From an uncultured Methanosarcinales archaeon (GTDB lineage Archaea; Nanobdellota; Nanobdellia; Woesearchaeales; GW2011-AR15): a stretch of DNA of 47,690 nt. Position numbers and translations under genes: made by a program. A model generated the notes under the pieces. That model was not told the origin of the DNA, ran no database searches, and saw only the letters and a list, made by a program, of their open reading frames with translations. The stretch is taken from contig CAYMPC010000003.1 in the NCBI GenBank assembly GCA_964392465.1, positions 1-47,690 on the forward strand, read 5' to 3'. Below, in pieces: positions 1 through 39,852 of the stretch (position 1 is its first letter; the number at the start of each line of letters is the position of its first letter).

Positions 1-556
1 TATATTCTAGTCTCTGGAACTTTTGAATTAATCCTTTGGGATTATAAACCTTCATTATAGGTGTTGCAATTGCCAATTTTTTATTATTCTGATGCTCATA
101 AACCATATAGGTCAAAGCTTCCTTGTCAACAAAAGAATCAGCATCTAGACAAGCAAACAAATCTCCTTTTAAAACAGATATCCCTTTATTTAATGCTTTA
201 CCTTTTCCTCCTCTTTTTTGAAAAAAATATTTTATATCATAACCTGCATACTTTTTTATAAGCTTATTTGATATATGACCTGTCTTATCTGTAGAACCAT
301 CATCTATAATTAAAATCTCTAATTTTTCTTTTGGGTAATCCAATTCAATCAATGAAGAAATTGTCTTTTCTATTGTACTTTCTTCATTGTAGCAGGGAAC
401 AATAACAGATACTAAGGGGAATTCCTTGAGTTTTGGTTTTTTGCTTAAATCCTTTTGAATCTCTTCTTTTTTTTCTAAAAAAAACAACAACCAATATATC
501 AAGAAGTATAATGTTAATAGATATGAAAACCAAACTACAAGTTTAATTAATTCCAT
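1..556 (-). CDS. Family-2 (GT-A) glycosyltransferase with N-terminal TM helix; N-terminal part only, the gene runs off the window start
   Basis: Absent from the ORF track because no stop lies in the window. Hand translation of the minus strand from the ATG at 556-554 gives MELIKLVVWFSYLLTLYFLIYWLLFFLEKKEEIQKDLSKKPKLKEFPLVSVIVPCYNEESTIEKT..., continuing through DDGSTDKT and a later LDADS. These are the GT2 signatures (VPxYNEE, DDGSxD, DxD). No in-frame stop in the parts I translated. Confidence 0.75.
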   Translation of the reverse strand, partial: MELIKLVVWFSYLLTLYFLIYWLLFFLEKKEEIQKDLSKKPKLKEFPLVSVIVPCYNEESTIEKTISSLIELDYPKEKLEILIIDDGSTDKTGHISNKLIKKYAGYDIKYFFQKRGGKGKALNKGISVLKGDLFACLDADSFVDKEALTYMVYEHQNNKKLAIATPIMKVYNPKGLIQKFQRLEY

Positions 557-617: not shown

Positions 618-2000
618 CTAATTTTGAGAAAGTAATTGCCAAATTTCAACTTCCTGATAATCATATATTTTTTTAAAAGAAATGCTATTTAATAGAACAA
701 ATTGCATTCCTTCTTCTGGCTTTTCCCATACTTCTCCATTTTTCATTTTTTGGTTGATCCAGATATAATTTAAGTTATTATCATTTAAAAAGAGAGTTAT
801 ATTTTTAAGGTTTCTTGATGCAAAAATCTCCTCGCTCTTAAGGATTCTTGCCTTATCCTTAGAGTATAAAAGGTAATTATTATCGGTATAAGTTTTAAAT
901 CTGGAAATACTGTTTATTATAAATCCATATTTATGATAAGAAAAAACATCTCCTTCCGGAACATTGCTTTTTAACCATTCTAAACTTATTATTTCTGCGT
1001 TTTTTGGACCTTCTTGTAAAATCCTGTTTAAGTAAGAACCAGAAGAGAAAAGCAACCCGCAAAAAATCAAAAGGATAACATAACTTTTTAAAGTTGTGCT
1101 TTCCCATTCTCGCTCAGTTATTTTCATAAACGCCAATCCTGCAAAATAGGATAAAATTAAAGTAATAAATAAAATAATAAAACTTGCGTATAAAGAGCAA
1201 ATAAAAAGAAAAATAAGAATAAAATAAGAAAGTGCTTTTTCTTTCTTCGTTTTCCAAGAAAAGAATATTCCGAAAAGACCTAGAAAAAAGATAAAGATAC
1301 TAAAACCAAAAAGAGAACCTAGATCCGATATGTAATAAGTAACAAGATTGTATAAAGAAATATCTCTCAAAAGAGACGCGTATGTTATCCTAATAAAAAA
1401 ATAAGAAACCAGCGCTGTACTAATTAATGGAAAAACAAGGTTTCTGCTTTTAAATCTTTCATATAGAAATATCAACAAGAGAATAATTATCAAAAAAAAA
1501 GCAGGATTAAATAAGAACGAAAAAAGGAAAGATAAGAATCCTAAAAAATATAGGTCTCTTAAAAGTAAATAAGTTCCAAAAAAAAGAAAAAAGAGAGATA
1601 AAAAAAGAATATTATAAGTTAAAGTAAGATATAAAAAAAAAGGAGAAAAAACAAAAAAAATAGTGGTATACATCTTTTGCTCCTCTTTTTCAAGGACATT
1701 ATCTAAGATTTTTTTTATTAGGAAAACATTTAGAATACCAAAAAATATAGGAAGAATCCTCATAAAAAAAACAGGATACCGAGAAAAAGAGACAAGATAA
1801 TTAAGAAGGAAACTTGTTTCTTCTAAAAAAAGAATTATGTTGTTTGTGTTTTTTATTTGATTTATTTCTGATAAATGTTCATATTCTTCATAAGATAAGA
1901 AATTTGTGTTTTTTGAAAATTTAAAAAGATAAAAAGAAGAGATAACAAGGATCATACCCAAAAGAAGAACCATGTTTTTTTGTATCTCTTTCTGTTTCAT
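618..2000 (-). CDS. Polytopic GT-C-type membrane protein with C-terminal soluble domain, STT3/AglB-like architecture (paralog 3)
   Basis: Track ORF 618-2009 begins at TTG; the first ATG is at 2000 (MKQKEIQKNMVLLLG). Many hydrophobic segments, then a soluble tail containing EWLKSNVPEGDVFSYHKYGFIINS, which resembles the STT3 block W-L-x-x-N-T-P...WWDYG. First loop has LSYEEYEHLSEINQI. Confidence 0.5.
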   Translation of the reverse strand: MKQKEIQKNMVLLLGMILVISSFYLFKFSKNTNFLSYEEYEHLSEINQIKNTNNIILFLEETSFLLNYLVSFSRYPVFFMRILPIFFGILNVFLIKKILDNVLEKEEQKMYTTIFFVFSPFFLYLTLTYNILFLSLFFLFFGTYLLLRDLYFLGFLSFLFSFLFNPAFFLIIILLLIFLYERFKSRNLVFPLISTALVSYFFIRITYASLLRDISLYNLVTYYISDLGSLFGFSIFIFFLGLFGIFFSWKTKKEKALSYFILIFLFICSLYASFIILFITLILSYFAGLAFMKITEREWESTTLKSYVILLIFCGLLFSSGSYLNRILQEGPKNAEIISLEWLKSNVPEGDVFSYHKYGFIINSISRFKTYTDNNYLLYSKDKARILKSEEIFASRNLKNITLFLNDNNLNYIWINQKMKNGEVWEKPEEGMQFVLLNSISFKKIYDYQEVEIWQLLSQN

Positions 2001-2005
2001 TTTAA

Positions 2006-3517
2006 TCAAATCGCCTTCAATTCACACCGCTCTTTGTTTCTTTTGAAAATTTGCGCTTCCTTGGTATTATAAACCAAATCAAAGCACTTTTCATCTATTG
2101 TGCGCATTTGAGTAAGATTATACTCTTGCTTTGTTTTAGAAGAAAAAAGAACATAATCTGAATTATATTTGTTAAGGATTCTTAAGGTTTCAACTTTAAA
2201 AGAAGTTGTATATATTGTTTTTATGTCCTCGAATCTAATATCTACATCTTTTACGCCTAAATATTCTCTGTCCATGACATTTTTTCTAGCACCAAGATAA
2301 GTAATAAAATGACCCTCTTCAGGAATTGAAAAAATAATTGCTTCTTCGGGTGTGTTTTTTTGTAACCAAGAAAAAGTACCCATGTATTCATCTGTTGGTA
2401 TTTTTGATGTTATCTCTCCCATTATTAAAAAACTAGGAAGAGTATGCCCGAATAACAACAAAACAAAAACAACAAAGTATAATTTAGACTCATGGTCTGA
2501 AAACTTGGTTTTTTTGATTGTTGCAAAAAAGTCTGCCAGAAATTGTCCTAATAGTATTACAAGTGTAACTCCTAAAAACATTAAAGAAAGTTCTGCAGGC
2601 AAAAATTTAAACCAAAACATGAGAAAGGTAGATAAAAAAAAACTGATAAATAATAACATATTCCTGCTTTTTTTAAAAATAAGATATTTGTAAATTGTAT
2701 ATATGCCAAAAACAAAGGGGAATATGCCTATACTTGCTAGTGCTACAGAAAGATTAATTGAAGTAAAGTATTTATCTATTGTGCTTGCAGGAACATTATT
2801 CCAAATTACTGAAAAACCATTATTTTGAAATGCGAATTTAAATACTATAAAATTTGCCCATAAATAAAAGAAAATAAAAAACGTCATAAATTCAATTTTT
2901 ATTTTTTCGATTTCTACATTTTCAATATAGGATAAAATCAGATAAATTATCAGCCCAACAAGGATTAAAAAGGAATAAGGAGAAATCATTATCAACAATA
3001 GTGTTAGAAAAATCAGATTGTTCAGATTTTTTTTATCTCTCTCAAGCATAATAAAAAGATATAATAAAAGAAAGGTGGCTGGAAAAAGAAATGAATATAT
3101 GCTAAGTTTATTTAAAGTTTCATTTATATATAAAGGAAAAGAAGCAGCCGCAATAGAACATAGCAGAGAGACATTTCTGTTTTTTATTGTTTGTGAAGTA
3201 ATAAGGTATATTATAATAACTAATGTTGATGCAAAAAGGTTGTTTATTATTTTTAAAACTAATATCTTTGGAAATAACAAGGCAAAAAAAGCCATGATGT
3301 AAAAATAAACCGGCATAAAAACAAAAGTTCTTCCTCCATAGCTGAGTTCGTCTTGAATTAATGGCTTTCCCGTGCTTAAAATATGATCAATTTGCCTTAG
3401 TGCAAAATAAGAAGTATCATCACTGAAGTACTCTGACTGAAGAGAAAAATAAAGTCGAATAAAGAAATATGATAAAAAAAGTAAAGTTAATAAGATATGT
3501 CTGAATTTTATTTTCAT
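2006..3517 (-). CDS. Polytopic GT-C-type membrane protein, STT3/AglB-like architecture (paralog 2)
   Basis: 503 aa with an ATG start. First extracytoplasmic loop YFSDDTSYFALRQIDHILSTG resembles the STT3 DxD/DPxYH-R loop. C-terminal soluble part has FSWLQKNTPEEAIIFSIPEEGHFITYLGARKNVMD, i.e. the WLxxNTP block followed by a degenerate WWDYG position. Confidence 0.55.
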   Translation of the reverse strand: MKIKFRHILLTLLFLSYFFIRLYFSLQSEYFSDDTSYFALRQIDHILSTGKPLIQDELSYGGRTFVFMPVYFYIMAFFALLFPKILVLKIINNLFASTLVIIIYLITSQTIKNRNVSLLCSIAAASFPLYINETLNKLSIYSFLFPATFLLLYLFIMLERDKKNLNNLIFLTLLLIMISPYSFLILVGLIIYLILSYIENVEIEKIKIEFMTFFIFFYLWANFIVFKFAFQNNGFSVIWNNVPASTIDKYFTSINLSVALASIGIFPFVFGIYTIYKYLIFKKSRNMLLFISFFLSTFLMFWFKFLPAELSLMFLGVTLVILLGQFLADFFATIKKTKFSDHESKLYFVVFVLLLFGHTLPSFLIMGEITSKIPTDEYMGTFSWLQKNTPEEAIIFSIPEEGHFITYLGARKNVMDREYLGVKDVDIRFEDIKTIYTTSFKVETLRILNKYNSDYVLFSSKTKQEYNLTQMRTIDEKCFDLVYNTKEAQIFKRNKERCELKAI

Positions 3518-3548
3518 TTTAATTATAACCTATATTCTTATTTTATTT

Positions 3549-3962
3549 TTATATTTTAATATTTTTAACATGGAAAACAAGGGAAATAATAAATGTTAAA
3601 AAAGCAACTACAAAAAACAAGAGCTTTGTAATTGGAAACTTCAAAACAATATCCAATATAACATAAATAGCTGAATATGTTAAACCAAGCAAGTTTGTTA
3701 AAAAAAATCTCTCTATTGTGCTTAAATAAGGGATTTGTTGAATGAAAAAAACAAAAGGAAAATACATAAATAATAGATAAGTGAATGCTAGTTTAAAAGA
3801 CAAAACTATATCATTCAAAGGAAGCGTGATTATAAAGAAAATTACAAAACTGAGTAGACTGCTTTTAAGAATTTCATAAAAAGAAAACGCAGCTCCTTTT
3901 TCCTTGGTTGTGTCCTCTTGTTTATAATGTTTGATTTCGTTATAATTCTTCTTTTTTTTCAT
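3549..3962 (-). CDS. Small ~4-TM membrane protein, unknown function, embedded in the GT-C operon
   Basis: 137 aa: a Lys-rich N-terminus then about four hydrophobic helices. Its start overlaps the upstream gene's 3' end by 23 nt (3940-3962). No recognisable motif. Confidence 0.5.
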   Translation of the reverse strand: MKKKKNYNEIKHYKQEDTTKEKGAAFSFYEILKSSLLSFVIFFIITLPLNDIVLSFKLAFTYLLFMYFPFVFFIQQIPYLSTIERFFLTNLLGLTYSAIYVILDIVLKFPITKLLFFVVAFLTFIISLVFHVKNIKI

Positions 3963-5601
3963 TTTTTAGTATAATATAACCTTCTGTATTGTAGACTATA
4001 TTAAAGTTGTATTTATTTATATATTCTGATACAAAAAAACGATTTATGTTTGCAAGATCTGGTGTTAAGTCTTGAAATATGACATAATCAAAATCAAGAA
4101 TATTATATGTTCTATTTGGTTCTAGATATGTCGAATAAGTCCAGAAATCTGTCTCAATCTTATGGCTTCTTAGTGTGTTTGCGCCCCATTCTCCTTCAAA
4201 TACTAATGGAGTTGTATTTGTTGAAACATATTCATTTACCTTTCTTTGGTATTCATTCATATCAAAATAAGCAGTAATCCTTTTTGTGTAGATGGATTCT
4301 GATTGAAATACTCCTCCATAAAATAGGAGTTTGCTTTCTTTATCTGTATTTGCCTGAATCCATTGATATACTTTCCATTCTTCAATAGGAAGGTGTTCAT
4401 ACTTTAACCTATCTTTAAGAGTGTTGTATTCCTGAATAGAAGAAAATACAAGAAAAACAAAAATCAAAGAAACTACAATAAGTTCTGAAAATTTTATTTT
4501 TTTCAGAGACTTAATAATAAAAAAATATATTCCGTAAGCTATGGTTGGATATAAGAAAAAAGGCGTCATTGTCCTTAATCTTATGAAATAATATGGTTGT
4601 TCTATAATTATAGGAGTCAAATAGATTATCAAAAAGTAATATAAATTAATAAGCAACCATGTTTTGTATTTTTTTCTGTTCAAAAATAGCTGAACGAGTG
4701 TAATCAAAAAAATAACAAGAATATACCAAGGAATAAAAGAGAGAATGGGATAAACCAAACCACCGGAATATTCCTTATTAAAGTAAACGCTTCTTATTCC
4801 ATAAAGTCCTAGCTTAAATTGTGATCCTCCTTCATCTCCCCATACAAACAAAAATCTTGGAATAAGAACCAAAAAGACAACTAGAAATACGCCTCCTAAA
4901 AGAGCAAAAGATTTTAGTAAAAATTTAAAATCTTTAGATTTTAGAGAAACTTGGATTATATAAATCCCTAAAAGTAAAGTAGGTAAAAAAAGAACTCCTA
5001 AATCTTGGGGATGAACAAGCATTACACCCACCAGAGTAAGACCTATAAAAAACAGATTCCATTGTTCTTTTCTTTTAAAATATCTTACAAAAAGCCATAT
5101 AAAAGTAAGTATAAACAGATTGCTTACTATTTGCAACCATAATCCTATATAAAGCCCATAAAGCCACACACTTAAAGGCATAGGAAGTGATGCAAAAAAG
5201 GAAGATATCAGTGAGATCTTATTATTTTCAAATATTTCTAATGATATAAGATAAAGTATAACAACATAAAAAGCCATTGAAATGCATATTAAAAAATAAA
5301 GTGTCACCCAAGCAGGCAAACTTGAAAAACTTGTTAAAATAGAAGAAGACAAATAATATAAAGGTGGTTGAAGGCTTGCTTCTTTTTCTTTTCCTAAGGA
5401 GATATAAGAATCATAATAATTCCACTGCTTTGTGTCAAGAATTCCCTCGACAGCAATTGAGTGATAAAAAGGATCCGCTGCTTTAAGATTACCTGGATGT
5501 GATAACGGGAGTCCATCTAAATTTAAATAAAGAATAGATGAAAACGCAAAAAGAAACAATATAACGTAAGATAAGTATTCCTCTTTAAAAAAATCCCCCA
5601 T
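3940..5601 (-). CDS. Polytopic GT-C-type membrane protein, STT3/AglB-like architecture (paralog 1)
   Basis: 553 aa. First loop has KAADPFYHSIAVEG (compare STT3/AglB DP[YF]YH). C-terminal soluble part has YQWIQANTDKESKLLFYGGVFQSESIYTKRITAYFD. Confidence 0.55.
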   Translation of the reverse strand: MGDFFKEEYLSYVILFLFAFSSILYLNLDGLPLSHPGNLKAADPFYHSIAVEGILDTKQWNYYDSYISLGKEKEASLQPPLYYLSSSILTSFSSLPAWVTLYFLICISMAFYVVILYLISLEIFENNKISLISSFFASLPMPLSVWLYGLYIGLWLQIVSNLFILTFIWLFVRYFKRKEQWNLFFIGLTLVGVMLVHPQDLGVLFLPTLLLGIYIIQVSLKSKDFKFLLKSFALLGGVFLVVFLVLIPRFLFVWGDEGGSQFKLGLYGIRSVYFNKEYSGGLVYPILSFIPWYILVIFLITLVQLFLNRKKYKTWLLINLYYFLIIYLTPIIIEQPYYFIRLRTMTPFFLYPTIAYGIYFFIIKSLKKIKFSELIVVSLIFVFLVFSSIQEYNTLKDRLKYEHLPIEEWKVYQWIQANTDKESKLLFYGGVFQSESIYTKRITAYFDMNEYQRKVNEYVSTNTTPLVFEGEWGANTLRSHKIETDFWTYSTYLEPNRTYNILDFDYVIFQDLTPDLANINRFFVSEYINKYNFNIVYNTEGYIILKNEKKEEL

Positions 5602-5702: not shown

Positions 5703-6332
5703 ATGAGTAAACAAAACAAAATTTTTATGCCTGAGGATCATATGGATTCACTATATAATTCCAAGAATCCTTTAGTAAGATTTGTTCATAATAATAGGTT
5801 AGATAGACTTGCTTTTTCTTTGCCTAAAAAAAATAATTTAAAAGTGTTGGATGCTGGTTGTGGAGAGGGGCATTTAATCCAAAAATTAAATTCTGTTAAT
5901 AATAAAAATAAATATTATGGTGCTGATCTAACAGGCATTGCCTTAAAAAAGGCAAAAAAAAGATGCCCTTATGCAAATTTAAAAAAGATGGATTTAACTA
6001 AGTTAAACTATGATGCTTCTTTTTTTGATATTGTTATATGTAGTGAAGTTATAGAGCACATTTATGAATATGAAAAAGTGATTTCTGAATTAGTTCGGGT
6101 TTTAAAAAAAGGGGGCTTCTTAATAATAACCTTTCCTAATGAGAAGTTATGGACTCTCAGCAGAGTGCTTCTTTTGAGAAGACCAATAAAAGTTCCCGAT
6201 CATGTCAATTCTTTTCAACCAAAATATTTTAAAGAAAAAGTAAATATGAAATTGGTTTACCAATTTAATCTGCCCTTTAATATGCCTTTCTTCTTTTCTC
6301 TTGGATGTTTGATGAAGTTCAGCAAAGAATAA
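5703..6332 (+). CDS. Class I SAM-dependent methyltransferase
   Basis: Motif I VLDAGCGEGHL; acidic post-I residue in YYGADL; motif-II-like FDIVICSEVIEHI; LKKGGFLIITFPN. Confidence 0.85.
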   Translation: MSKQNKIFMPEDHMDSLYNSKNPLVRFVHNNRLDRLAFSLPKKNNLKVLDAGCGEGHLIQKLNSVNNKNKYYGADLTGIALKKAKKRCPYANLKKMDLTKLNYDASFFDIVICSEVIEHIYEYEKVISELVRVLKKGGFLIITFPNEKLWTLSRVLLLRRPIKVPDHVNSFQPKYFKEKVNMKLVYQFNLPFNMPFFFSLGCLMKFSKE

Positions 6333-6339
6333 TTAAAAG

Positions 6340-7053
6340 TTAATATTTTTTAGCAAAATCATTTAATCTTATTTTTATAAGTTCAAAAAGCATAGAAAAA
6401 GAATCTTTGAATAATCTGACTTTACTAGAAGAATCGTTATACCATTCAACTCCTATCTCTTTTATCTTTAGGTTATATTTATTTGCCAAAAAAAGTATTT
6501 CAACATCAAAACCAAATCCGAATATTTTTTGCTTTTTGAATATTTTCCTGCTTTTTTTCATGTTAAATAATTTGAATCCGCACTGTGTATCTTTTATTTT
6601 TAAATTAATGAAAAAACTAACTAAAAAAGGAAAAATATTTCCTGCCATAATTCTCCAGGGTGTCTGTTTTTCTACAACATTAGATTCTTTTGTCCTTCTA
6701 GAACCTAAAATGATGTCATATTCAGGGATAATGGCTAAAAACTTCTCTATCTCTTCTATAGGAGTACTTAAGTCAGCATCTGTAAATAAGGCATAATCTC
6801 CTTTGCAATGGAGCATTCCGCTTTTTACTGAATATCCCTTTCCCATATTACAAGGGTTCTTTATAATTATTATATCTTTTGAGACCTTAATTATTTTATT
6901 TATTGTGTTGTCTGTTGAACCATCATCTACAACTATTATTTCAAACTTGGCTTCTTTTTTTTTTAGATATGCTAATATCTTAATTAGGGTTTTTTCTATT
7001 CTCTTTTCTTCATTATATGCAGGAATAATAACAGATAAAAATTTGGGTTTCAT
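6340..7053 (-). CDS. GT2 glycosyltransferase, dolichyl-phosphate hexose synthase-like (Dpm1/Alg5/AglK type)
   Basis: LSVIIPAYNEEKRIEKTL, IIVVDDGSTDNT, FTDADLSTPIEE, and a short soluble protein of 237 aa. This is the typical polyprenyl-phosphate sugar synthase pattern. Confidence 0.8.
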   Translation of the reverse strand: MKPKFLSVIIPAYNEEKRIEKTLIKILAYLKKKEAKFEIIVVDDGSTDNTINKIIKVSKDIIIIKNPCNMGKGYSVKSGMLHCKGDYALFTDADLSTPIEEIEKFLAIIPEYDIILGSRRTKESNVVEKQTPWRIMAGNIFPFLVSFFINLKIKDTQCGFKLFNMKKSRKIFKKQKIFGFGFDVEILFLANKYNLKIKEIGVEWYNDSSSKVRLFKDSFSMLFELIKIRLNDFAKKY

Positions 7054-7055: not shown

Positions 7056-8168
7056 TTAATCCAGGTCAATTGTTATTTTTTTTTCTTTTTCATTAACTTC
7101 TTTTATGATCTTGTGGTTTTCCAGTTTTTCTTTTATTTCTCTAATTGAATGTTTTTCTCTTGCTTTTTTAATTTCTGACAGGACCTTATCTAAAAAAGCA
7201 TATTTCTCATATATCGCTTCTCCTTTCTTTTGGTTTTCCTGAAATGCATCAAAAAAGCCTTTAATCTGTACTTCCTGCTTTTTTATTATACCTTGAAGTT
7301 TTATTTTTTCATTATCTTTTTTAGAAACAAAAATATTTTGTTCTTCTGAAATACTTAAAAAATATTTTGATATTGCTTCACTAAAGAGATTAAACTTTTC
7401 TTTTTTATTATTTTTGAAAGTAATTAAATCAAATGGAGAAAAATTTACAGGCTTATTGTTTTCAAAATAAACAAAGGGTTCTGGACTCATTTTTTTTATT
7501 TCGTCAAAAACATTATAGATTTGGGATATCTCTTTTTTTTCCAGTTGAATCTTTTTCTTATCGATTTTTGCCCTGTGGCATATTTCTTCGGCATATTTTC
7601 CGCCGAGCCCAAAATTTACTGCAAGGGTTATGACAATCGAATCTTTATCTGTTGTTTCAATTGATTTTACAAATTTGCCTTCGTCTAAGTTTAGAAAATT
7701 AACTTCTTTTTTGGGATAATCATAAATCGCTCCAGGCCTGATTAATCTAGAACCGAATCCTTTGTATTCTTTTGCCATAATTATTTTATAATTTTTATCG
7801 CATAAGATTAGATTGCCTGGCCTAAATAATTCTATTAATAAAAAATAGTTACTTGTCAATGTTTCTATTTCTATCTCTATAATCCTCTCAAATTCCTTTT
7901 GCAATATTTTTTTTATTCTTGTTTTCAATAAATGTTTTCTTAAAGAAAGAGCCAACTTTCCGCTTTCTTCAATCTCCTCTTTTGTATCTGATAGAAACAT
8001 ATAATTAGGGAAAAAAACATGGAGAAATTTCTTTTCTTTTCCAGGTATGTAAAACTGAAAAATTATGTGCTCTTCTTTTTGGAATATGTTTTCTACTCTT
8101 GATTCTTCAAGTACCTTAATCTCTTTCATTAAAAAAAAAAGGTCTATGGAAGATAGTTCTTGTGCCAT
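7056..8168 (-). CDS. NFACT-N family protein (Rqc2/NEMF/FbpA homolog), short form: NFACT-N + HhH + coiled coil only
   Basis: N-terminus SSIDLFFLMKEIKVLEESRVENIFQ...; LLIELFRPGNLILCDKNYKIIMAKEY...LIRPGAIYDYP; HhH-like FGLGGKYAEEICHRAKID; C-terminal K/E-rich helix. No NFACT-R (DUF814)-like segment before the stop. Confidence 0.7.
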   Translation of the reverse strand: MAQELSSIDLFFLMKEIKVLEESRVENIFQKEEHIIFQFYIPGKEKKFLHVFFPNYMFLSDTKEEIEESGKLALSLRKHLLKTRIKKILQKEFERIIEIEIETLTSNYFLLIELFRPGNLILCDKNYKIIMAKEYKGFGSRLIRPGAIYDYPKKEVNFLNLDEGKFVKSIETTDKDSIVITLAVNFGLGGKYAEEICHRAKIDKKKIQLEKKEISQIYNVFDEIKKMSPEPFVYFENNKPVNFSPFDLITFKNNKKEKFNLFSEAISKYFLSISEEQNIFVSKKDNEKIKLQGIIKKQEVQIKGFFDAFQENQKKGEAIYEKYAFLDKVLSEIKKAREKHSIREIKEKLENHKIIKEVNEKEKKITIDLD

Positions 8169-8252: not shown

Positions 8253-8969
8253 ATGATCTCTTTCATAATTCCCTGTCTTGATGAAGAAAAAAGAATTGCT
8301 TCTGTTATTAAGCAATTTGGAGTTCTAAAAGGTAAATATGATTATGAGGTTATTATAGGAGATGGCGGAAGCACAGACAAGACAGTAAAAATTGCAAAAA
8401 AACACGGGGCAAACGTATTTCAGAATAAAAGAGAGAATCAAAATATTGCAAAAAACAGGAACCTTGGGGCAAAGTATGCAAAAGGTGATATTTTGGTTTT
8501 TTGTGATGCAGATACCAAACTATCTAATCCCTTATTCTTCACTAAAACAATTATTTCTAAATTTGAAGATACAAATATTGTGGGCGGTGTTCCAAAGATA
8601 AGAGTACTTCCTAAAGAAGAAAAAAATGAAGATAAATTATATTTATTTATACTAAATCTATATTGCAAAGAGAGCTTTAAAACAAAAAAACCTATAGCGA
8701 GCGGACAATGCCAGATAATTAGGAGAAGCACTTTTGAAAAAATAAAAGGATATAATGAGAAGCTTGCACATGGTGAAGATGGAGACTTAATAATGCGCCT
8801 TGGAAAAATCGGAAAATTATATTTTTTCTCTAATCTCACTATTTATGAAAGTGCAAGAAGATATAGAAAATGGGGATACTCAAAGCTCATAACAACTGCA
8901 GCTGCCAATTTAATGTCAAGAGCTATTTTCAAAAAAGATATATTGAAAGAATGGGAAAGAGTTGAATAA
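8253..8969 (+). CDS. GT2 family glycosyltransferase
   Basis: ISFIIPCLDEEKRI, IIGDGGSTDKTVKIA, VFCDADTKL (DxD). Confidence 0.8.
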   Translation: MISFIIPCLDEEKRIASVIKQFGVLKGKYDYEVIIGDGGSTDKTVKIAKKHGANVFQNKRENQNIAKNRNLGAKYAKGDILVFCDADTKLSNPLFFTKTIISKFEDTNIVGGVPKIRVLPKEEKNEDKLYLFILNLYCKESFKTKKPIASGQCQIIRRSTFEKIKGYNEKLAHGEDGDLIMRLGKIGKLYFFSNLTIYESARRYRKWGYSKLITTAAANLMSRAIFKKDILKEWERVE

Positions 8970-8976
8970 TTTTTTT
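8970..8976 (+). terminator. Oligo-T tract (T7) directly after the GT2 stop codon
   Basis: TAA then TTTTTTT, in the 11-nt gap between the convergent genes 8253-8969 (+) and glmS (-). Confidence 0.3.
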
Positions 8977-8980
8977 ACAA

Positions 8981-10696
8981 TTATTTTACAGTAACTGATT
9001 TTGCTAAATTTCTAGGCTTGTCTATAGGCAATCCTTTTTTTTGTGCTATATAATAGGTAAGCAATTGCCCAACGATTGTAGCCAATATCCCAAACTTTCC
9101 GTCGTTGTCTGTGTTTATTTTTATATCTCCTTCAAATTCATTGGCTATTTTTATTACCTTTGCTCCTCTTGCTTCTACTTCTTTTGTATTTGAGAGCATT
9201 GCATGGTCTTTATTGCTTATTAAAGAGATAACAGGTGTCCCTTTTTCAATAAGGGCAATAGTGCCATGCTTTAATTCCCCTCCCATCATTCCTTCTGCAT
9301 GAATATAAGATATCTCTTTTATTTTAAGTGCAATTTCCCTTGCAACGGGGTAGCTTAAGCCTCTTCCTAAGATATAGATATCTTGGTAATTATAAATATC
9401 TTCAGCAATTTTTTTTATTTTATCTTTTAAAACATGTATTTGCTCTATTTTTTCAGGAAGATTATCCAAATTTATCCAAAAATTGAATTTTTGTGCAATT
9501 GATAATAATAAAGTAACTTGATTAACAAAAGATTTTGTTGCTGCAACACATATCTCTTGTCCTGCTGCTATATTTAAAGATACTTCTGACATTCTCTGAA
9601 TTGTTGAATAGGGAACATTCACAATTGAAACAATTTTTGCATTGTTCTTTTTTGCATATTTTAAAGCTTCAATAACATCCATTGTTTCTCCGGATTGTGA
9701 CATTGCTATAACTAAAGTATCTTTATCTACTCCTATAAAATGCTCAAATTCAGATGCTATTATTGTCTGTGCGTTAATATTGCATTTATGAAGATAATAT
9801 ACCCCTAATAGAGAAGCATGATAACTTGTCCCTGCCCCTACAAACATTATTTTTTTTGCTTTTTTCATCAAATAGACAAATTTGTCAAAAGATTCTTTCT
9901 GCTCTGCTTTAAGACTTAATAGAAGCCTCCTTACTACCTTTGGTTCTTCCATTATTTCTTTAAGCATATAATGCTCATATTGGTCTTGATTTGATTCTTC
10001 CTGCTCCCATTTAAATTCCTGAATTTTTTTTCTAACTTCTTTTCCTTTAGAATCATAAAAAACATAATTATCAGATGATATTATTGCAAATTCATCGTTG
10101 TCAAAAAAAATTGCTTTGTCTGTAATATCTGAAAATGCATATATATCTGACGCAATAATATTTTTATCTTTGCATATTCCAAGAACTAATGGAGAGTCTC
10201 TTCTCAATGCATAAATATTTTTATCTCCTTCTATCATCAAAAGAATGGCAAATTCTCCTTTTATTTCTTTAATGAAATCTATACAAACATCAAAAATTTT
10301 TTTTGATTTTAGTTTTTCTTCAATAAAATGTGCTGCTATCTCTGTGTCTGTCTGGCTTATGAATTTATGGCCTTTTTTTATAAGATCTTCTTTTAATTCA
10401 AGATAATTCTCAATAATTCCGTTATGTATCAGTGTGATCTTTTTATCGCATGACTGATGAGGGTGTGCATTAATCTCTGTTACTCCTCCATGTGTTGCCC
10501 ACCTTGTGTGTGTGATTATTCTTTTTGTCTTGTCTTTAGTATCTGGAATCTTAATATCTCCAACTTTCTTGTATAATATTTTGCCATCAAAATATCCGAA
10601 AGAATCATATCCTCTGTATTCTAATCTTTTTAGTTTCTTGATTGCATCTGTAACATAAAATTCCTCTTTTGAATTAATTCCCACTATTCCACACAT
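8981..10696 (-). CDS. glmS: Glutamine--fructose-6-phosphate aminotransferase (isomerising)
   Basis: N-terminal nucleophile MCGIVG, RLEYRGYDS, HTRWATHG, two SIS-domain regions (SQSGETMD), C-terminal LAKSVTVK. Confidence 0.95.
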   Translation of the reverse strand: MCGIVGINSKEEFYVTDAIKKLKRLEYRGYDSFGYFDGKILYKKVGDIKIPDTKDKTKRIITHTRWATHGGVTEINAHPHQSCDKKITLIHNGIIENYLELKEDLIKKGHKFISQTDTEIAAHFIEEKLKSKKIFDVCIDFIKEIKGEFAILLMIEGDKNIYALRRDSPLVLGICKDKNIIASDIYAFSDITDKAIFFDNDEFAIISSDNYVFYDSKGKEVRKKIQEFKWEQEESNQDQYEHYMLKEIMEEPKVVRRLLLSLKAEQKESFDKFVYLMKKAKKIMFVGAGTSYHASLLGVYYLHKCNINAQTIIASEFEHFIGVDKDTLVIAMSQSGETMDVIEALKYAKKNNAKIVSIVNVPYSTIQRMSEVSLNIAAGQEICVAATKSFVNQVTLLLSIAQKFNFWINLDNLPEKIEQIHVLKDKIKKIAEDIYNYQDIYILGRGLSYPVAREIALKIKEISYIHAEGMMGGELKHGTIALIEKGTPVISLISNKDHAMLSNTKEVEARGAKVIKIANEFEGDIKINTDNDGKFGILATIVGQLLTYYIAQKKGLPIDKPRNLAKSVTVK

Positions 10697-10714
10697 TTTA
10701 AATTCCTCTCTGCT

Positions 10715-11929
10715 TCATTCAATATCTTTTTTAACTATTTCTCCTGGCAATGTTGTCCTATCTGGCCAGATCTTTCTTCCAGGATAAATTGAAGTATGTA
10801 TTCCTGTATGAACACAATCTCCTATTATTGTTCCGAGTTTTCTTCTTTCTGAATCGATCAAACTTCCTTTGACATGGCTTTTTATATTTGTATCATCGTG
10901 TCTTAAATTTGCTGTTATTGTGCCTGCTCCAAAATTCACATTATCTCCAATCACACTATCGCCAACATAAGAAAGGTGTCCAATAGAAGTATTATCTCCT
11001 ATTATTGAATTTTTTATTTCAACTGCATTTCCTATTTTTGAATTATTTCCTATTGTTACTGCTGCTCTTATAAAGCAATTTGGCCCTATATTACAATTAT
11101 CTCCTATAATAACTGGGCCTTCTATATAACTTCCTGATTTTACTATTGTCCCTTTTCCTACACTTATCTCACCTTTTATTGTTGCTCCTTTTTCTATTAC
11201 TCCTAGATTTTTGGTTTTTATCCTTGATACTAGGAATTCGTTCGCTAAAAGCAGACTCCATGGATAGGTTATTGGAAACCAATAGTCTGTTACTTTCACA
11301 TAATTTACTTCTTTGTTGTCTTTCAATAAATATGAGATAAAATCTGTAAGCTCATATTCTCCTCTCTCTGATTTTTTTAATTTGTAAGAAAATATTTCTT
11401 TATCAAAAACATAAACTCCTGTGTTTGCCTTTCCTGCTCTTTTTTCGTTTGGCTTCTCTTTCATGCCAATTATTTTATTGCTTGTTGTAATTACTTCTCC
11501 AAAGTTTCTTATGTCCTCAATCTCTTTCACAAGCACACAATATTTATGATCAATACACTTCTCAATGTCCTTTCCAGAATAAATATCATCTCCATTAATC
11601 ACAAGAAATCTTTTTTTAATGAGCCTTTCAGCAGCCAATAAAGCCCCCCCGCTTCCGTTCTGCTCTTTCTGTTCAACATATATTATTCTAATATTTCTAA
11701 AATTATTACCTAATCTCTCTTTAATCTTCTCTCCTTTAAATCCTATTACAATTATTGCTTCATCAATAATATTTTCAAGCTGCTCGAGAGTATGCTCAAT
11801 TATTGTCTTATTTGCTATTTTAAGTAGGGGCTTTGGTTTTGTTGCTGTCAATGGATGTGTTCTTGTTGATTTTCCTGCTGCTAATATTACTGCCTGAATT
11901 TTTTGTATTTTTTGGGTTTTAGGATTCAT
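10715..11929 (-). CDS. glmU: Bifunctional sugar-1-phosphate nucleotidylyltransferase / acetyltransferase (GlmU-like, archaeal type)
   Basis: Track start at 11938 is GTG; the first ATG is at 11929. AVILAAGKSTRTHPLT..KPKPLL nucleotidyltransferase motif; C-terminal left-handed beta-helix hexapeptide repeats (IGDN.xIG...). Confidence 0.85.
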   Translation of the reverse strand: MNPKTQKIQKIQAVILAAGKSTRTHPLTATKPKPLLKIANKTIIEHTLEQLENIIDEAIIVIGFKGEKIKERLGNNFRNIRIIYVEQKEQNGSGGALLAAERLIKKRFLVINGDDIYSGKDIEKCIDHKYCVLVKEIEDIRNFGEVITTSNKIIGMKEKPNEKRAGKANTGVYVFDKEIFSYKLKKSERGEYELTDFISYLLKDNKEVNYVKVTDYWFPITYPWSLLLANEFLVSRIKTKNLGVIEKGATIKGEISVGKGTIVKSGSYIEGPVIIGDNCNIGPNCFIRAAVTIGNNSKIGNAVEIKNSIIGDNTSIGHLSYVGDSVIGDNVNFGAGTITANLRHDDTNIKSHVKGSLIDSERRKLGTIIGDCVHTGIHTSIYPGRKIWPDRTTLPGEIVKKDIE

Positions 11930-11941
11930 CTTATGCACCTT

Positions 11942-13588: not shown

Positions 13589-13598
13589 ATTTTTACAA

Positions 13599-39831: not shown

Positions 39832-39852
39832 ATCTAAAAAAAACAAGAATAA

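What the first reader, a model, noticed from the sequence alone, without database searches (positions are those of the whole stretch)
618..5601. Three tandem, highly diverged STT3/AglB-like GT-C membrane proteins, none with a canonical WWDYG motif
One minus-strand operon encodes polytopic proteins of 553, 503 and about 460 aa, with a 137-aa 4-TM protein inserted after the first. Each has a many-TM N-terminal part and a soluble C-terminal domain.

The first external loop carries STT3-like acidic motifs: AADPFYHSIAVEG; FSDDTSYFALRQIDHI; and the weaker LSYEEYEHLSEINQI.

The start of the soluble domain aligns across all three and to the classic oligosaccharyltransferase block W-L-x-x-N-T-P-x-x-x-x-[VI]-x-S-WWDYG:
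- paralog 1: YQWIQANTDKESKLLFYGGVFQ
- paralog 2: FSWLQKNTPEEAIIFSIPEEGHFI
- paralog 3: LEWLKSNVPEGDVFSYHKYGFII

At the catalytic WWDYG position they read FYGGV, IPEEG and YHKYG. They could be oligosaccharyltransferase-derived enzymes with altered chemistry or acceptor, or pseudo-enzymes or scaffolds, or a different GT-C family that converges on this layout. Three divergent copies in a row in a small genome is unusual in any of those cases.
Basis: partly seen in the sequence, partly recalled or inferred. Interest (0 to 1): 0.65.

Follow-up and report, generated by a model that had tools for sequence, protein, structure and literature searches.

The report
Three STT3-like glycosyltransferases lacking WWDYG
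A Woesearchaeota (DPANN archaeon) contig carries three tandem, highly diverged relatives of the N-glycosylation enzyme STT3/AglB that have lost its sequon-binding and most metal-binding motifs; this trio is conserved in related genomes next to a normal AglB, so it is probably an uncharacterised set of cell-surface sugar transferases and not a replacement for AglB.

Summary
The minus strand encodes, tightly packed, proteins of 553, 137, 503 and 463 (probably 460) aa.

- **Homology among the three.** The three large proteins are homologous over their full length (hhalign 99.96 % and 98.5 %).
- **Sequence link to STT3.** Profiles of the paralog 2 and paralog 3 families hit STT3/AglB structures, exactly on the WL..NT..[WWDYG] block (E 1e-8 and 6e-5). 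No other PDB family is hit significantly.
- **Fold.** AlphaFold models of paralogs 2 and 1 (pLDDT 91 and 87) match STT3/AglB/PglB best. DPY19 comes next, then ArnT and PMT.
- **Motifs.** The EL1 catalytic acid is kept in all three. The two tryptophans of WWD are lost in all three. Paralog 2 has also lost the second DxD/E metal motif and the EL5 glutamate. In paralogs 1 and 3 no conserved acid is seen at the DxD position, by inspection only.
- **Context.** In 15 related Woesearchaeota/Nanoarchaeota loci, paralogs 2 and 3 are always adjacent, and a PgaC-like GT2 follows in 14 of them. Eleven loci also hold a canonical 950-985 aa AglB (ten show WWDFG; the eleventh is cut by a contig end before the motif).
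- **Family size.** The paralog 2 family has at least 666 clusters at 50 % identity. Public names are "hypothetical protein" or "GT39".

My inference is that these are STT3-derived, probably metal-independent, outer-face transferases that use dolichyl-phosphate sugars on a non-sequon acceptor. Function is untested.

The parts
3940..5601 (-). Paralog 1 (553 aa). A GT-C membrane protein and member of Pfam DUF6541, with an STT3-like predicted fold. Its EL1 motif is K-A-A-D43-P-F-Y-H. It reads Y-G-G-V-F at the WWDYG position.
   Evidence: ORF. PF20176 scores 44.9 bits against a gathering score of 29. The family alignment A2 has D43, F45, Y46, H47, K440 and R441 invariant. hhalign to the paralog 2 family gives 98.5 %, E 1.6e-15. 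The AlphaFold model has pLDDT 86.5. Foldseek top hits are yeast and human STT3, PglB and AglB at E 1e-7 to 2e-5.
3549..3962 (-). Small membrane protein with four predicted TM helices (137 aa). It overlaps the end of paralog 1 by 23 nt and always follows paralog 1 in relatives. It is a candidate partner subunit or lipid-linked-sugar flippase; this is inference only.
   Evidence: ORF. Alignment with three orthologues shows invariant E84, D104, P69, G93 and Y96. It follows paralog 1 in every relative that has paralog 1. It has no Pfam or PDB match.
2006..3517 (-). Paralog 2 (503 aa). The most clearly STT3-like of the three. EL1 reads F-S-D-D-T-S-Y-F-A-L-R ... D56-E-L-S-Y-G-G-R. It has P128..T134-x-N136 in place of the DxD motif. 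Its EL5 reads I-W-N-N-V-P. S-I-P-E-E-G-H replaces S-W-W-D-Y-G-H.
   Evidence: ORF. The family profile hits STT3 8i9p at E 1.1e-8, AglB-S2 3vu0 at 2e-5, and STT3A/B at 3e-4. hhalign to canonical Woesearchaeota AglBs gives 93 %, E 3e-7 over 449 columns. The AlphaFold model has pLDDT 91.4 and pTM 0.88. The Foldseek top 18 hits are all OST catalytic subunits, with TM-score 0.60-0.75. Column statistics come from 172 family members.
618..2009 (-). Paralog 3 (463 aa from a TTG; probably 460 aa from the ATG at 1998-2000). It is the fastest-evolving copy. EL1 reads S-Y-E-E-Y-E-H. S-Y-H-K-Y-G replaces S-W-W-D-Y-G.
   Evidence: ORF, with the 460-aa database copy. hhalign to the paralog 2 family gives 99.96 %, E 8.5e-39. 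The family profile hits AglB C-terminal domains 3vu0 at 5.6e-5 and 3vgp at 1.8e-3. hhalign to canonical AglB covers the WWDYG block only, at E 2.4e-5. It is always directly downstream of paralog 2. No structure model was made.
1..556 (-). The 5' part (about 185 aa) of a PgaC/IcaA/NodC-like membrane GT2 (processive-synthase type). It is cut by the end of the window and lies directly downstream of paralog 3.
   Evidence: The reading frame is open from the ATG at 554-556 to the window end. phmmer against the full-length L001 orthologue gives 3e-42. That orthologue matches TIGR03937 PgaC_IcaA over its full length, E 1e-50, which is below the curated cut-off.
6340..7053 (-). Soluble GT2 (237 aa) of the polyprenyl-phosphate sugar synthase type (GtrB/ArnC/DPM synthase-like). 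It is conserved just upstream of paralog 1.
   Evidence: Pfam Glycos_transf_2. The best PDB matches are GtrB 5ekp at 1.8e-14, ArnC at 1e-13 and P. furiosus Dol-P-Man synthase 5mlz at 4e-12. NCBIfam gives sub-threshold hits to PgfS, ArnC, PpgS, AglJ and Dol-P-hexose transferase.
5703..6332 (+). SAM-dependent methyltransferase (209 aa) lying between the GT2 and paralog 1. The same gene sits at the same place in L001 and L011.
   Evidence: Pfam Methyltransf_11/31/25.
8253..13294 (.). Context genes: a second GT2 (8253-8969, +), GlmS (8981-10696, -), a GlmU-like nucleotidyltransferase/acetyltransferase (10715-11938, -) and a phosphohexosamine/phosphoglucomutase (11942-13294, -). Together they make a UDP-GlcNAc supply module.
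   Evidence: Pfam hits. GlmS and NFACT also flank the cluster in L002, L008, L009 and L010.

Best explanation
The three large genes are ancient paralogues derived from the STT3/AglB oligosaccharyltransferase lineage of GT-C enzymes. They form a conserved, Woesearchaeota-wide module that works alongside the ordinary AglB, not instead of it.

**What they keep (shown).** Each keeps the GT-C catalytic acid in the first external loop and a minimal AglB-type C-terminal core domain.

**What they have lost (shown, except as noted).** All three have lost the two tryptophans that read the +2 Ser/Thr of the N-x-S/T sequon. Paralog 2 has also lost the second DxD/E metal motif and the EL5 glutamate that positions the acceptor Asn and the metal. 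For paralogs 1 and 3 the DxD loss rests on inspection of the alignments only, and EL5 was not resolved.

**Most likely mechanism (inferred).** They act on the outer face of the membrane. They transfer sugar from a dolichyl-phosphate-linked donor in a metal-independent way, as DPY19 or ALG-type GT-Cs do, to an acceptor that is not an N-x-S/T asparagine. The acceptor could be a protein-bound glycan, another protein side chain, or the polymer made by the adjacent PgaC-like synthase.

**Proposed supply line (inferred).** The adjacent GtrB/DPM-synthase-like GT2 would make the lipid-linked sugar. The small 4-TM protein would flip it, or in relatives the ArnE/ArnF-like pair would. This is the logic of bacterial three-component extracytoplasmic glycosylation systems.

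**Possible complexes (inferred).** Paralogs 2 and 3 are always adjacent and may act as a heteromer, with paralog 3 the less constrained partner. Paralog 1 and the small protein form a second unit.
For: **Homology to STT3 (shown).**
- The paralog 2 profile hits STT3 8i9p at E 1.1e-8 and AglB-S2 3vu0 at 2e-5. The paralog 3 profile hits 3vu0 at 5.6e-5. Both align on the WWDYG block, and no unrelated PDB family scores below E 0.1.
- hhalign of paralog 2 against canonical Woesearchaeota AglB gives 93 %, E 3e-7 over 449 columns.
- Foldseek top hits are all OST catalytic subunits for paralog 2 (E 6e-13 to 9e-9, TM-score 0.60-0.75) and for paralog 1 (1e-7 to 2e-5). DPY19 is next (4.6e-9 and 5.7e-6), followed by AftA and ArnT. 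PMT is much weaker.
- The three are homologous to each other.

**Motif state, over 172 paralog 2 family members on the hhalign register.**
- Kept: EL1 acid D/E 77 %, Y37 97 %, R41 94 %, D56 98 %.
- The AglB D-N-D aligns to L-S-I, with no acids. T134 (87 %) and N136 (90 %) are conserved there instead.
- In EL5, W, N and P are kept, but the TIXE-Glu position reads S/A/N.
- The WW positions are aliphatic or small. G402 is 98 % conserved.
- Paralog 1 keeps an invariant D43. The paralog 3 family keeps D/E in EL1.

**Roles of these motifs.** PMC7226087.

**Precedent.** DPY19 has an STT3-like variable module, uses Dol-P-Man, is metal-independent, and has an EL1 Glu as its base (PMC10154233).

**Not decaying.** All copies are intact in 15 loci. 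Orthologue identity is 47-59 % for paralog 1, 36-52 % for paralog 2 and 28-46 % for paralog 3, against 49-61 % for AglB. E209, C478 and C498 are invariant or nearly so.

**Not the main OST.** A canonical AglB lies within 10 kb in 11 of the 15 loci, and ten of these show WWDFG.

**Supply line.**
- The adjacent GT2 is most similar to GtrB, ArnC and Dol-P-Man synthase.
- ArnE/F-like pairs occur in relatives.
- Three-component systems are described in PMC11127046 and PMC8035078.
Against: - No biochemical or genetic data exist. Donor, acceptor and metal independence are all inferred from missing motifs.
- Euryarchaeal AglBs already use Dol-P-linked glycans while keeping the DxD motif. Donor type therefore does not by itself predict motif loss.
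- The paralog 2 family keeps mostly acidic residues at the D and X positions of WWDXG (55 % and 78 %) and an invariant Gly. A modified peptide-binding site is therefore not excluded.
- The small 4-TM protein has no detectable similarity to GtrA, SMR or any other family.
- The GT2 hits are all below curated cut-offs.
- Paralog 1 has no direct sequence-level link to STT3.
- Paralog 3 was not modelled.
- I could not inspect model coordinates. The positions of invariant residues (for example E209) relative to the active site are unknown.
Confidence: 0.5

Rival explanations
1. They are alternative oligosaccharyltransferases. They would transfer a preassembled glycan en bloc from a dolichyl (pyro)phosphate carrier to protein, but with a different acceptor rule: a non-canonical N-sequon, or Ser/Thr/other residues. 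That would give the cell several protein-glycosylation specificities beside AglB.
For: The closest fold and sequence relatives are OST catalytic subunits. The AglB-type C-terminal core, which forms the peptide-binding site, is retained. In the paralog 2 family the [DE]-E-G-H motif keeps an acid and the Gly of WWDXG. Paralog 3 relatives read S-H-Y-x-Y-G. Multiple AglB/STT3 paralogues in one genome have precedent in Archaeoglobus fulgidus, which has AglB-L, -S1 and -S2 (PDB entries listed).
Against: In paralog 2 the second metal motif and the EL5 Glu are lost or unconserved. Together with the EL1 Asp these hold the metal and twist the Asn carboxamide in all characterised OSTs (PMC7226087). Paralogs 1 and 3 show no conserved acid at the DxD position in their alignments. 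Both WWD tryptophans are gone in all three. The transmembrane domain is about 100 residues shorter than in STT3.
Confidence: 0.2
2. One or more of them, most plausibly paralog 3, are catalytically dead pseudo-enzymes. They would serve as scaffolds or specificity subunits for an active partner: paralog 2, AglB, or the PgaC-like synthase.
For: The paralog 3 family has no invariant charged residue. It is the fastest-evolving copy, at 28-46 % identity between orthologues against 49-61 % for AglB. The window's paralog 3 and its two closest relatives have lost the D..GGR segment of EL1 that the rest of the family and paralog 2 keep. The strict 2-3 adjacency suggests a heteromer.
Against: The EL1 acid is D or E in all 10 paralog 3 family members. 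Paralogs 1 and 2 have many invariant polar residues. All copies are intact full-length ORFs in every locus.
Confidence: 0.2
3. They belong to a different GT-C family (PMT/ArnT-like, GT39/GT83, as NCBI names some relatives) and only resemble STT3 by convergence of layout.
For: Nine of 27 paralog 2 relatives weakly hit Pfam PMT_2 (best 6.9e-7). Seven hit DUF6541 and seven hit DUF6798. None reaches PF02516. NCBI labels some members 'glycosyltransferase family 39 protein'.
Against: Profile searches of the PDB return only STT3/AglB at E < 0.1 and no PMT or ArnT. Foldseek ranks PMT at 1e-2 and ArnT at 4e-5, against 6e-13 for STT3. The C-terminal domain aligns residue by residue with the AglB core, including the positions around WWDYG, the following Arg and the following Asp. 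The EL1 and EL5 segments also align with AglB.
Confidence: 0.05

Closest known systems
STT3 / AglB / PglB oligosaccharyltransferase catalytic subunit (CAZy GT66, Pfam PF02516 + AglB core)
   Same: The overall predicted fold is shared (Foldseek best hits). So are the EL1 D-x-x-[YF]-x-x-R segment and the D..[W/S]Y.[L/G]GR segment. Part of EL5 (I-W-x-N-V) aligns. The C-terminal core aligns through W-L-x-x-N-T ... G-H ... R ... D ... A..L.KY.V.Y[IV]. The short C-terminal domain resembles the minimal AglB-S type (3vu0, 3vgp).
   Different: There is no WWDXG in any of the three. Paralog 2 has no DxD/DxE/DxH second metal motif and no conserved EL5 Glu; for paralogs 1 and 3 the DxD loss is by inspection only. 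The proteins are 460-553 aa, against 950-985 aa for the canonical AglB of the same lineage. From the helix list and loop charges, paralog 2 appears to have about 11 TM helices instead of 13, but I did not verify this on coordinates. None reaches the Pfam STT3 threshold. They coexist with a canonical AglB.
DPY19 tryptophan C-mannosyltransferase (GT98)
   Same: DPY19 is an STT3-like GT-C that has no OST metal site and no WWD motif. It uses an EL1 carboxylate as base, takes a Dol-P-monosaccharide donor and is metal-independent (PMC10154233). It is the second-best structural class for both models (E 4.6e-9 and 5.7e-6). This is the best 'works like' analogue.
   Different: No sequence-level relationship was tested or seen. 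DPY19 is eukaryotic, about 650-700 aa, and recognises WxxW. Nothing indicates C-mannosylation here.
Bacterial three-component extracytoplasmic glycosylation systems (GtrA/GtrB/GtrC; CsbB/GtcA/YfhO; ArnC/ArnEF/ArnT)
   Same: The gene logic matches. A GtrB/ArnC/DPM-synthase-like GT2 lies next to GT-C enzymes and a small multi-TM protein, and relatives carry an ArnE/ArnF-like pair. These systems are described in PMC11127046 and PMC8035078.
   Different: The GT-C here is STT3-derived, not of the GtrC, YfhO or ArnT type. There are three GT-Cs in series. The small protein is not a detectable GtrA or SMR member. The system is archaeal, so the carrier would be dolichol.
Pfam DUF6541 (PF20176)
   Same: Paralog 1 scores 44.9 bits, above the gathering score of 29. 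NCBI names its orthologues 'DUF6541 family protein'.
   Different: DUF6541 has no assigned function, and no paper in the searched library mentions it. The match covers only residues 34-358 of paralog 1 (profile positions 114-449 of 646), so the C-terminal domain is not covered.

Membership tests
STT3/AglB/PglB oligosaccharyltransferase (GT66) | Match to Pfam STT3 (PF02516) above the gathering score | tested here: not met
   None of the three window proteins hits PF02516, even at E <= 10. None of the 27 paralog 2 relatives hits it either. Only three of the 27 hit AglB_core-like PF22627, weakly, with a best E of 0.0028.
STT3/AglB/PglB oligosaccharyltransferase (GT66) | STT3-type fold (TM domain plus C-terminal core domain) | tested here: met
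   For paralog 2, the Foldseek top 18 hits are all STT3/AglB/PglB, at E 6e-13 to 3e-9 and TM-score 0.60-0.75. The isolated AglB-S2 C-terminal domain matches at 3e-3. Paralog 1 shows the same ranking at E 1e-7 to 2e-5 and TM-score about 0.45-0.56. Paralog 3 was not modelled and rests on profile evidence only.
STT3/AglB/PglB oligosaccharyltransferase (GT66) | EL1 catalytic Asp (PglB D56, AglB and Stt3 D47) | tested here: met
   Paralog 2's D34 region aligns to the G-D-I-D-S-Y-Y of canonical AglB and is D/E in 77 % of 172 members. Paralog 1's D43 is invariant. The paralog 3 family has D/E in 10 of 10 members.
STT3/AglB/PglB oligosaccharyltransferase (GT66) | Second metal-binding motif DxD / DxE / DxH after TM3 | tested here: not met
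   In paralog 2, the AglB D-N-D aligns to L138-S139-I140. Those columns hold no acids in 172 members. Paralogs 1 and 3 show no conserved acid after the conserved Pro (P140 and P123) in their family alignments. That last point is by inspection, not by a significant alignment.
STT3/AglB/PglB oligosaccharyltransferase (GT66) | EL5 TIXE/SVSE glutamate | tested here: not met
   The AglB I-W-P-N-V-Y-T-T-V-A-E segment aligns to paralog 2's I-W-N-N-V-P-A-S-T-I-D. The Glu column is S/A/N/G in most of the 172 members, and D in only 11. This was not resolved for paralogs 1 and 3.
STT3/AglB/PglB oligosaccharyltransferase (GT66) | WWDXG sequon-binding motif | tested here: not met
   No WWDxG occurs in any frame of the window. 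The aligned residues are I-P-E-E-G (paralog 2), Y-H-K-Y-G (paralog 3) and Y-G-G-V-F (paralog 1).
STT3/AglB/PglB oligosaccharyltransferase (GT66) | DK / MI motif of the Ser/Thr pocket | tested here: inconclusive
   The hhalign alignments end before this region or are unreliable in it. Paralog 3's M-K-x-G-x-V-W resembles the canonical D-M-V-G-K-x-x-V-W by eye only.
Pfam DUF6541 (PF20176) | Score above the gathering threshold | tested here: met
   Paralog 1 scores 44.9 bits against 29. Paralog 2 scores 12.4 bits, below threshold.
PMT_2 / GT39 / GT83 (PMT, ArnT-like) | Best profile and fold match to PMT or ArnT | tested here: not met
   The window proteins have no PMT_2 hit. Nine of 27 paralog 2 relatives have weak hits. 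Foldseek puts ArnT at 4e-5 and PMT at 1e-2, far behind STT3. No PMT or ArnT appears in the PDB profile searches.
Three-component extracytoplasmic glycosylation system | Polyprenyl-phosphate sugar synthase GT2 encoded next to the GT-C | tested here: met
   The best PDB matches of window 6340-7053 are GtrB, ArnC and Dol-P-Man synthase. The gene is conserved upstream of paralog 1 in relatives. Its activity is not tested.
Three-component extracytoplasmic glycosylation system | GtrA/SMR-type small flippase | tested here: inconclusive
   The small 4-TM protein has no Pfam or PDB match. ArnE/ArnF-like pairs exist in relatives' loci at sub-threshold scores, but none was found in the window.

The most novel reading that the evidence does not exclude
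The trio would define a large, Woesearchaeota/Nanoarchaeota-specific clade of STT3-derived enzymes that has switched chemistry: metal-independent transfer from a Dol-P-linked donor to a non-asparagine acceptor. Together with the invariably linked PgaC-like synthase, it would build or anchor a previously unknown archaeal surface glycoconjugate, or install a new type of protein glycosylation. This would be a prokaryotic parallel to the STT3-to-DPY19 divergence seen in eukaryotes.
Probability: 0.25. Interest if true: 0.75.

Novelty: new variant of a known kind. Interest (0 to 1): 0.55.

Why it matters
STT3/AglB/PglB is treated as a single-function family defined by WWDXG. This finding shows a populous, unannotated sister group that keeps the fold and the catalytic acid but has lost sequon recognition, and in the best-characterised copy the metal site as well. 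The paralog 2 profile alone finds at least 666 clusters at 50 % identity.

Three such genes occupy about 4.6 kb of very small genomes, and one related genome is a complete 1.16 Mb chromosome. They sit next to the real AglB and a polysaccharide-synthase-like GT2.

This gives three things:
- a natural experiment on how the OST scaffold is repurposed;
- candidate enzymes for the unknown envelope chemistry of DPANN archaea, whose cell surface mediates host attachment;
- a correction to public annotations, which read 'hypothetical protein', 'GT39' or 'DUF6541'.

The function is still inferred only.

Tried and rejected
- **Single-sequence phmmer of each paralog against the PDB.** Nothing relevant came back. 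Family profiles were needed.
- **Pfam and NCBIfam on the window proteins.** There was no STT3 hit. The only hits were DUF6541 for paralog 1, and for paralog 2 sub-threshold DUF6541, DUF2079 and a TIGR03662 'Chlor_Arch_YYY' C-terminal hit at 7.8e-6.
- **Paralog 1 family profile against the PDB and against canonical AglB.** No hit. Its STT3 link is therefore transitive plus structural.
- **Paralog 3 family against Pfam.** Nothing.
- **Small 4-TM protein against Pfam and against the PDB by profile.** Nothing. The flippase idea stays an inference.
- **A canonical AglB inside the window.**
  - The 828-aa ORF is an M1 aminopeptidase.
  - The 693-aa ORF has no family.
  - No WWDxG occurs in any frame.
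- **The search for related loci with the 27-sequence alignment.** It failed because the alignment was too divergent. I repeated it with 8 closer sequences.
- **Convergence reading.** Considered and rejected because the profile E-values are specific to STT3.
- **Decaying-duplicates reading.** Considered and rejected because all copies are intact and conserved in 15 loci.
- **Residue mapping on the 3D models.** I could not do this because model coordinates are not exposed. The membrane side of invariant E209 and the TM count (about 11, from the helix list and loop charges) remain unverified.
- **Literature.**
  - No paper mentions DUF6541.
  - Searches on AglB/DPANN, on AglB/WWDXG and on Woesearchaeota glycosylation returned no title or abstract describing WWDXG-less STT3 homologues.
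  - Only parts of one review (PMC11407970) were read.

Full report
**1. What is there**

The first 5.6 kb of the window encode, on the minus strand and almost without spacers:
- paralog 1 (3940-5601, 553 aa);
- a 137-aa four-TM protein (3549-3962, overlapping paralog 1 by 23 nt);
- paralog 2 (2006-3517, 503 aa);
- paralog 3 (618-2009, 463 aa from a TTG). The database copy is 460 aa, which implies the ATG at 1998-2000.

A further minus-strand reading frame starts at the ATG at 554-556 and runs off the left end of the window. It is the 5' 185 codons of a PgaC/IcaA/NodC-like membrane GT2. The ORF listing does not show it because it is cut by the window end.

Upstream lie:
- a SAM methyltransferase (5703-6332, +);
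- a 237-aa GT2 (6340-7053, -);
- an NFACT protein;
- a second GT2;
- GlmS, a GlmU-like enzyme and a phosphohexomutase.

The rest of the window holds MCM, a fused PriS-PriL primase and SecY, so it is archaeal. All named relatives are Woesearchaeota, Nanoarchaeota or Nanoarchaeia. G+C is 27-33 %.

**2. The three large proteins are homologous to each other**

Single-sequence BLASTP is weak. Paralog 2 versus 3 gives E 2e-6 over the C-terminal 187 residues, 1 versus 2 gives E 1e-3, and 1 versus 3 gives nothing.

Family alignments settle the question. I used 27, 20 and 10 sequences (A1, A2, A3). hhalign gives 99.96 % probability, E 8.5e-39 for paralog 2 versus 3, and 98.5 %, E 1.6e-15 for paralog 2 versus 1. 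Both alignments are essentially end to end.

**3. Are they STT3-like? Sequence evidence**

Pfam and NCBIfam do not say so:
- No paralog hits STT3 (PF02516).
- Paralog 1 is a bona fide DUF6541 member (44.9 bits against a cut-off of 29).
- Paralog 2 has only sub-threshold hits, including a C-terminal match to TIGR03662 at E 7.8e-6.
- Paralog 3 hits nothing.

Among the 27 paralog 2 relatives, weak hits go to PMT_2 (9 members), DUF6541 (7), DUF6798 (7) and AglB_core-like (3).

Profile searches of all PDB sequences are specific:
- The paralog 2 profile finds a fungal STT3 (8i9p) at E 1.1e-8, the A. fulgidus AglB-S2 C-terminal domain (3vu0) at 2.1e-5, and mammalian STT3A and human STT3B at about 3e-4. 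The next unrelated protein is at E 0.6.
- The paralog 3 profile finds 3vu0 at 5.6e-5 and 3vgp at 1.8e-3.
- The paralog 1 profile finds nothing.

R ... D ... A..L.KY.V.Y[IV].

Against an alignment of three canonical AglBs from related Woesearchaeota (A5):
- the paralog 2 family aligns over 449 columns at 93 % probability, E 3.1e-7;
- the paralog 3 family aligns on the WWDYG block only, at E 2.4e-5;
- the paralog 1 family does not align.

**4. Fold evidence**

AlphaFold2 models built from the family alignments are confident. Paralog 2 has pLDDT 91.4 and pTM 0.88. Paralog 1 has pLDDT 86.5 and pTM 0.87.

| Foldseek class (PDB) | Paralog 2 | Paralog 1 |
|---|---|---|
| STT3 / AglB / PglB | top 18 hits; all such hits E 6e-13 to 9e-9, TM-score 0.60-0.75 | best hits, about 1e-7 to 2e-5 |
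| DPY19 C-mannosyltransferase | 4.6e-9 | 5.7e-6 |
| AftA | 5e-6 | 9.5e-5 |
| ALG12 | 2e-5 | not listed |
| ArnT | 4e-5 | 1.3e-5 |
| PMT | 1e-2 | 9e-3 |

The isolated AglB-S2 C-terminal domain also matches paralog 2, at E 3e-3.

**5. Motif by motif**

The roles of the OST motifs are taken from PMC7226087. I used the hhalign register and column counts over 172 paralog 2 family members.

| OST motif | State in the paralogs |
|---|---|
| EL1 catalytic Asp (PglB D56, AglB D47) | Retained. Paralog 2 F-S-D-D-T-S-Y-F-A-L-R aligns to AglB G-D-I-D-S-Y-Y-W-L-R. D34 is D/E in 77 %, Y37 97 %, R41 94 %. The following D56-x-L-S-Y-G-G-R (D 98 %) parallels the STT3 D-x-x-x-W-Y-P-L-G-R segment as I recall it (not checked here). 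Paralog 1 has invariant D43-P-F-Y-H. Paralog 3 relatives have D/E in 10 of 10. |
| Second metal motif (PglB D154/D156, AglB D161/H163, Stt3 D166/E168) | Lost in paralog 2. AglB P-T-L-L-S-R-T-L-G-S-D-N-D aligns to paralog 2 P-L-Y-I-N-E-T-L-N-K-L-S-I. The D-N-D columns contain no acids, while T134 (87 %) and N136 (90 %) are conserved. Paralogs 1 and 3 show no conserved acid after the equivalent Pro, by inspection only. |
| EL5 Glu (TIXE) | AglB I-W-P-N-V-Y-T-T-V-A-E aligns to paralog 2 I-W-N-N-V-P-A-S-T-I-D. W (74 %), N (94 %) and P (97 %) are conserved. The Glu column is S/A/N/G in most members. Not resolved for paralogs 1 and 3. |
| WWDXG | S-W-W-D-F-G-H aligns to S-I-P-E-E-G-H in paralog 2. 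The W positions are aliphatic or small. The D position is acidic in 55 %, the X position in 78 %, and G is 98 %. It aligns to S-Y-H-K-Y-G in paralog 3 and to F-Y-G-G-V-F-Q in paralog 1. |
| DK/MI motif | Could not be aligned reliably. |

The paralog 2 family has its own conserved residues: E209 is invariant in all 172 sequences, and C478 and C498 are invariant or nearly so.

**6. Conservation and context**

I fetched 15 related loci. They include the complete 1.16-Mb chromosome of archaeon GW2011_AR15. I scanned them with family HMMs and phmmer.

- Paralog 2 is followed by paralog 3 on the same strand in 15 of 15 loci.
- Paralog 1 is followed by the small protein wherever paralog 1 occurs (7 loci). 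They lie directly upstream of paralog 2 in six of these and about 6 kb away in AR15.
- A PgaC-like GT2 lies next to paralog 3 in 14 of 15 loci; the fifteenth contig ends there. A thioredoxin-like protein of about 215-250 aa lies with it in 10 of the 15 loci.
- More distant relatives have a PMT_2-type GT-C instead of, or in addition to, paralog 1.
- A canonical AglB (952-985 aa where complete) lies within 10 kb in 11 loci. Pfam STT3 and STT3-PglB_core hits are on record for those in L001-L004. Ten of the eleven show S-W-W-D-F-G-H. The eleventh, in L008, is cut by the contig end before the motif. AglB is usually flanked by an epimerase, an ArnE/ArnF-like pair of small EamA proteins and SecY.

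The trio is therefore an addition to AglB, not a replacement. In the window the AglB gene, if present, would lie beyond the left end.

Between orthologues from the same genome pairs, identity is 80-91 % for SecY, 49-61 % for AglB, 47-59 % for paralog 1, 36-52 % for paralog 2 and 28-46 % for paralog 3. The paralogs evolve fast but are clearly constrained, and all copies are intact.

An exhaustive profile search of 1.84 billion representatives finds 3067 clusters at E <= 1e-3, 1302 at <= 1e-10 and 666 at <= 1e-30. The best 150 are all full-length proteins of 443-538 aa. In a sample of ten clusters, every member that names an organism is Woesearchaeota, Nanoarchaeota or Nanoarchaeia. The protein names given are 'hypothetical protein' or 'glycosyltransferase family 39 protein'.

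**7. How it most likely works**

Shown:
- STT3-type fold, for paralogs 1 and 2.
- Retention of the GT-C catalytic acid and the AglB-type core domain.
- Loss of the sequon-reading tryptophans in all three.
- Loss, in paralog 2, of two of the three acidic groups that hold the metal and the acceptor Asn in OSTs.
- Conserved linkage to a GT2 whose closest solved relatives are GtrB, ArnC and Dol-P-Man synthase.
- Conserved linkage to small multi-TM proteins and to a PgaC-like synthase. Relatives also have a canonical AglB nearby.

Inferred: the proteins are active outer-face glycosyltransferases. They take a dolichyl-phosphate-linked sugar and transfer it, without the OST metal site, to something other than an N-x-S/T asparagine.

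The best mechanistic analogue is DPY19. It has an STT3-like variable module, a Dol-P-Man donor, an EL1 carboxylate base, and needs no metal (PMC10154233). The gene logic resembles bacterial three-component systems made of a GT2 lipid-sugar synthase, a small flippase and a GT-C (PMC11127046 and PMC8035078). From my own knowledge, the archaeal AglD/AglR/AglS step in Haloferax follows the same logic. I did not verify this in a paper here.

The acceptor is unknown. Candidates are AglB-installed N-glycans, protein side chains, or the product of the PgaC-like synthase. The UDP-GlcNAc supply genes next door fit a GlcNAc-containing product.

The strict pairing of 2 with 3, and of 1 with the small protein, suggests two complexes. 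Paralog 3 is the least constrained copy and may be a non-catalytic partner.

**8. Rivals**

- **Alternative OSTs with a new acceptor rule.** This is possible because the peptide-binding domain and an acidic [DE]-E-G-H remain. It is disfavoured by the loss of the metal and Asn-activating residues in paralog 2.
- **Pseudo-enzyme or scaffold.** This is plausible only for paralog 3.
- **A convergent PMT/ArnT-type family.** This is rejected by the STT3-specific profile hits and the fold ranking.

**9. Novelty and limits**

The held literature has no paper mentioning DUF6541. Three searches on archaeal AglB returned no title or abstract describing WWDXG-less STT3 homologues, and I read only parts of one review. 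These proteins are a new variant of a known kind: a large, unannotated, STT3-derived GT-C clade with three sub-families.

Limits:
- There are no experimental data.
- Paralog 1's link to STT3 is indirect.
- Paralog 3 is unmodelled.
- Model coordinates could not be inspected, so the location of family-specific invariant residues and the TM count are unverified.
- The GT2 and flippase assignments rest on sub-threshold similarities or on context.

Noticed in passing
window 1-556 (-): A gene cut by the left end of the window. It is the 5' 185 codons of a PgaC/IcaA/NodC-like membrane GT2, directly downstream of paralog 3. The ORF listing misses it because it runs off the end. The same gene is linked to paralog 3 in 14 of 15 related loci.
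   Followed up: yes
L001 9510-12467; L002 17448-20306; L004 9949-12834; L011 17908-20748 and others: A canonical AglB lies 4-6 kb from the trio in relatives. It is 952-985 aa, hits Pfam STT3, and has S-W-W-D-F-G-H, G-D-I-D-S-Y-Y, D-N-D and T-V-A-E motifs. It is usually next to an epimerase, an ArnE/ArnF-like EamA pair and SecY. In the window, SecY (19394-20827) is elsewhere and has no AglB beside it, so the locus is rearranged there.
   Followed up: partly
L005 15034-16584; L006 14819-16324; L008 13288-15708; L011 14825-16276: A further GT-C gene (Pfam PMT_2, about 480-800 aa) sits in the same cluster in some relatives, including AR15. It raises the count to five GT-C genes within about 20 kb of a 1.16-Mb genome.
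   Followed up: partly
L001 6498-7139 and orthologues (L004, L005, L006, L007, L008, L009, L011, L013, L015): A protein of about 215-250 aa with faint thioredoxin, TraF or glutaredoxin-like hits is linked to the PgaC-like GT2. It may relate to the conserved Cys pair (C478/C498) in the external domain of the paralog 2 family. This is speculative.
   Followed up: no
window 2006-3517, residue E209 of paralog 2: A glutamate is invariant in 172 of 172 family members and has no counterpart in canonical AglB. From the helix list and loop charges it seems to lie near the cytoplasmic end of a TM helix, away from the expected active site. Its role is unexplained.
   Followed up: partly
window 38215-39846 (-): A single 543-aa ORF carries both a DNA primase small-subunit domain and a large-subunit domain (a PriS-PriL fusion).
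   Followed up: no
window 40231-42312 (-): A 693-aa ORF has no significant Pfam family. The only hit is DUF7085 at 0.0049, below its cut-off.
   Followed up: no
window 13575-14525 (+): A 316-aa protein combines an ArsR-type HTH (HTH_20 and HTH_5) with an S-layer-like outer domain (S_layer_C, 3.7e-8). This is an unusual pairing.
   Followed up: no
window 7056-8168 (-): A 370-aa protein has only the NFACT N-terminal and middle domains. It lies between the two GT2 genes and keeps its position next to the glycosylation cluster in L002, L008, L009, L010 and L011.
   Followed up: partly
window 1-47690: ARAGORN finds no tRNA gene in 47.7 kb. GC and AT skew are strongly negative across about 20-40 kb, where nearly all ORFs are on the minus strand. 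This is presumably the ribosomal-protein block upstream of SecY, but I did not check.
   Followed up: no
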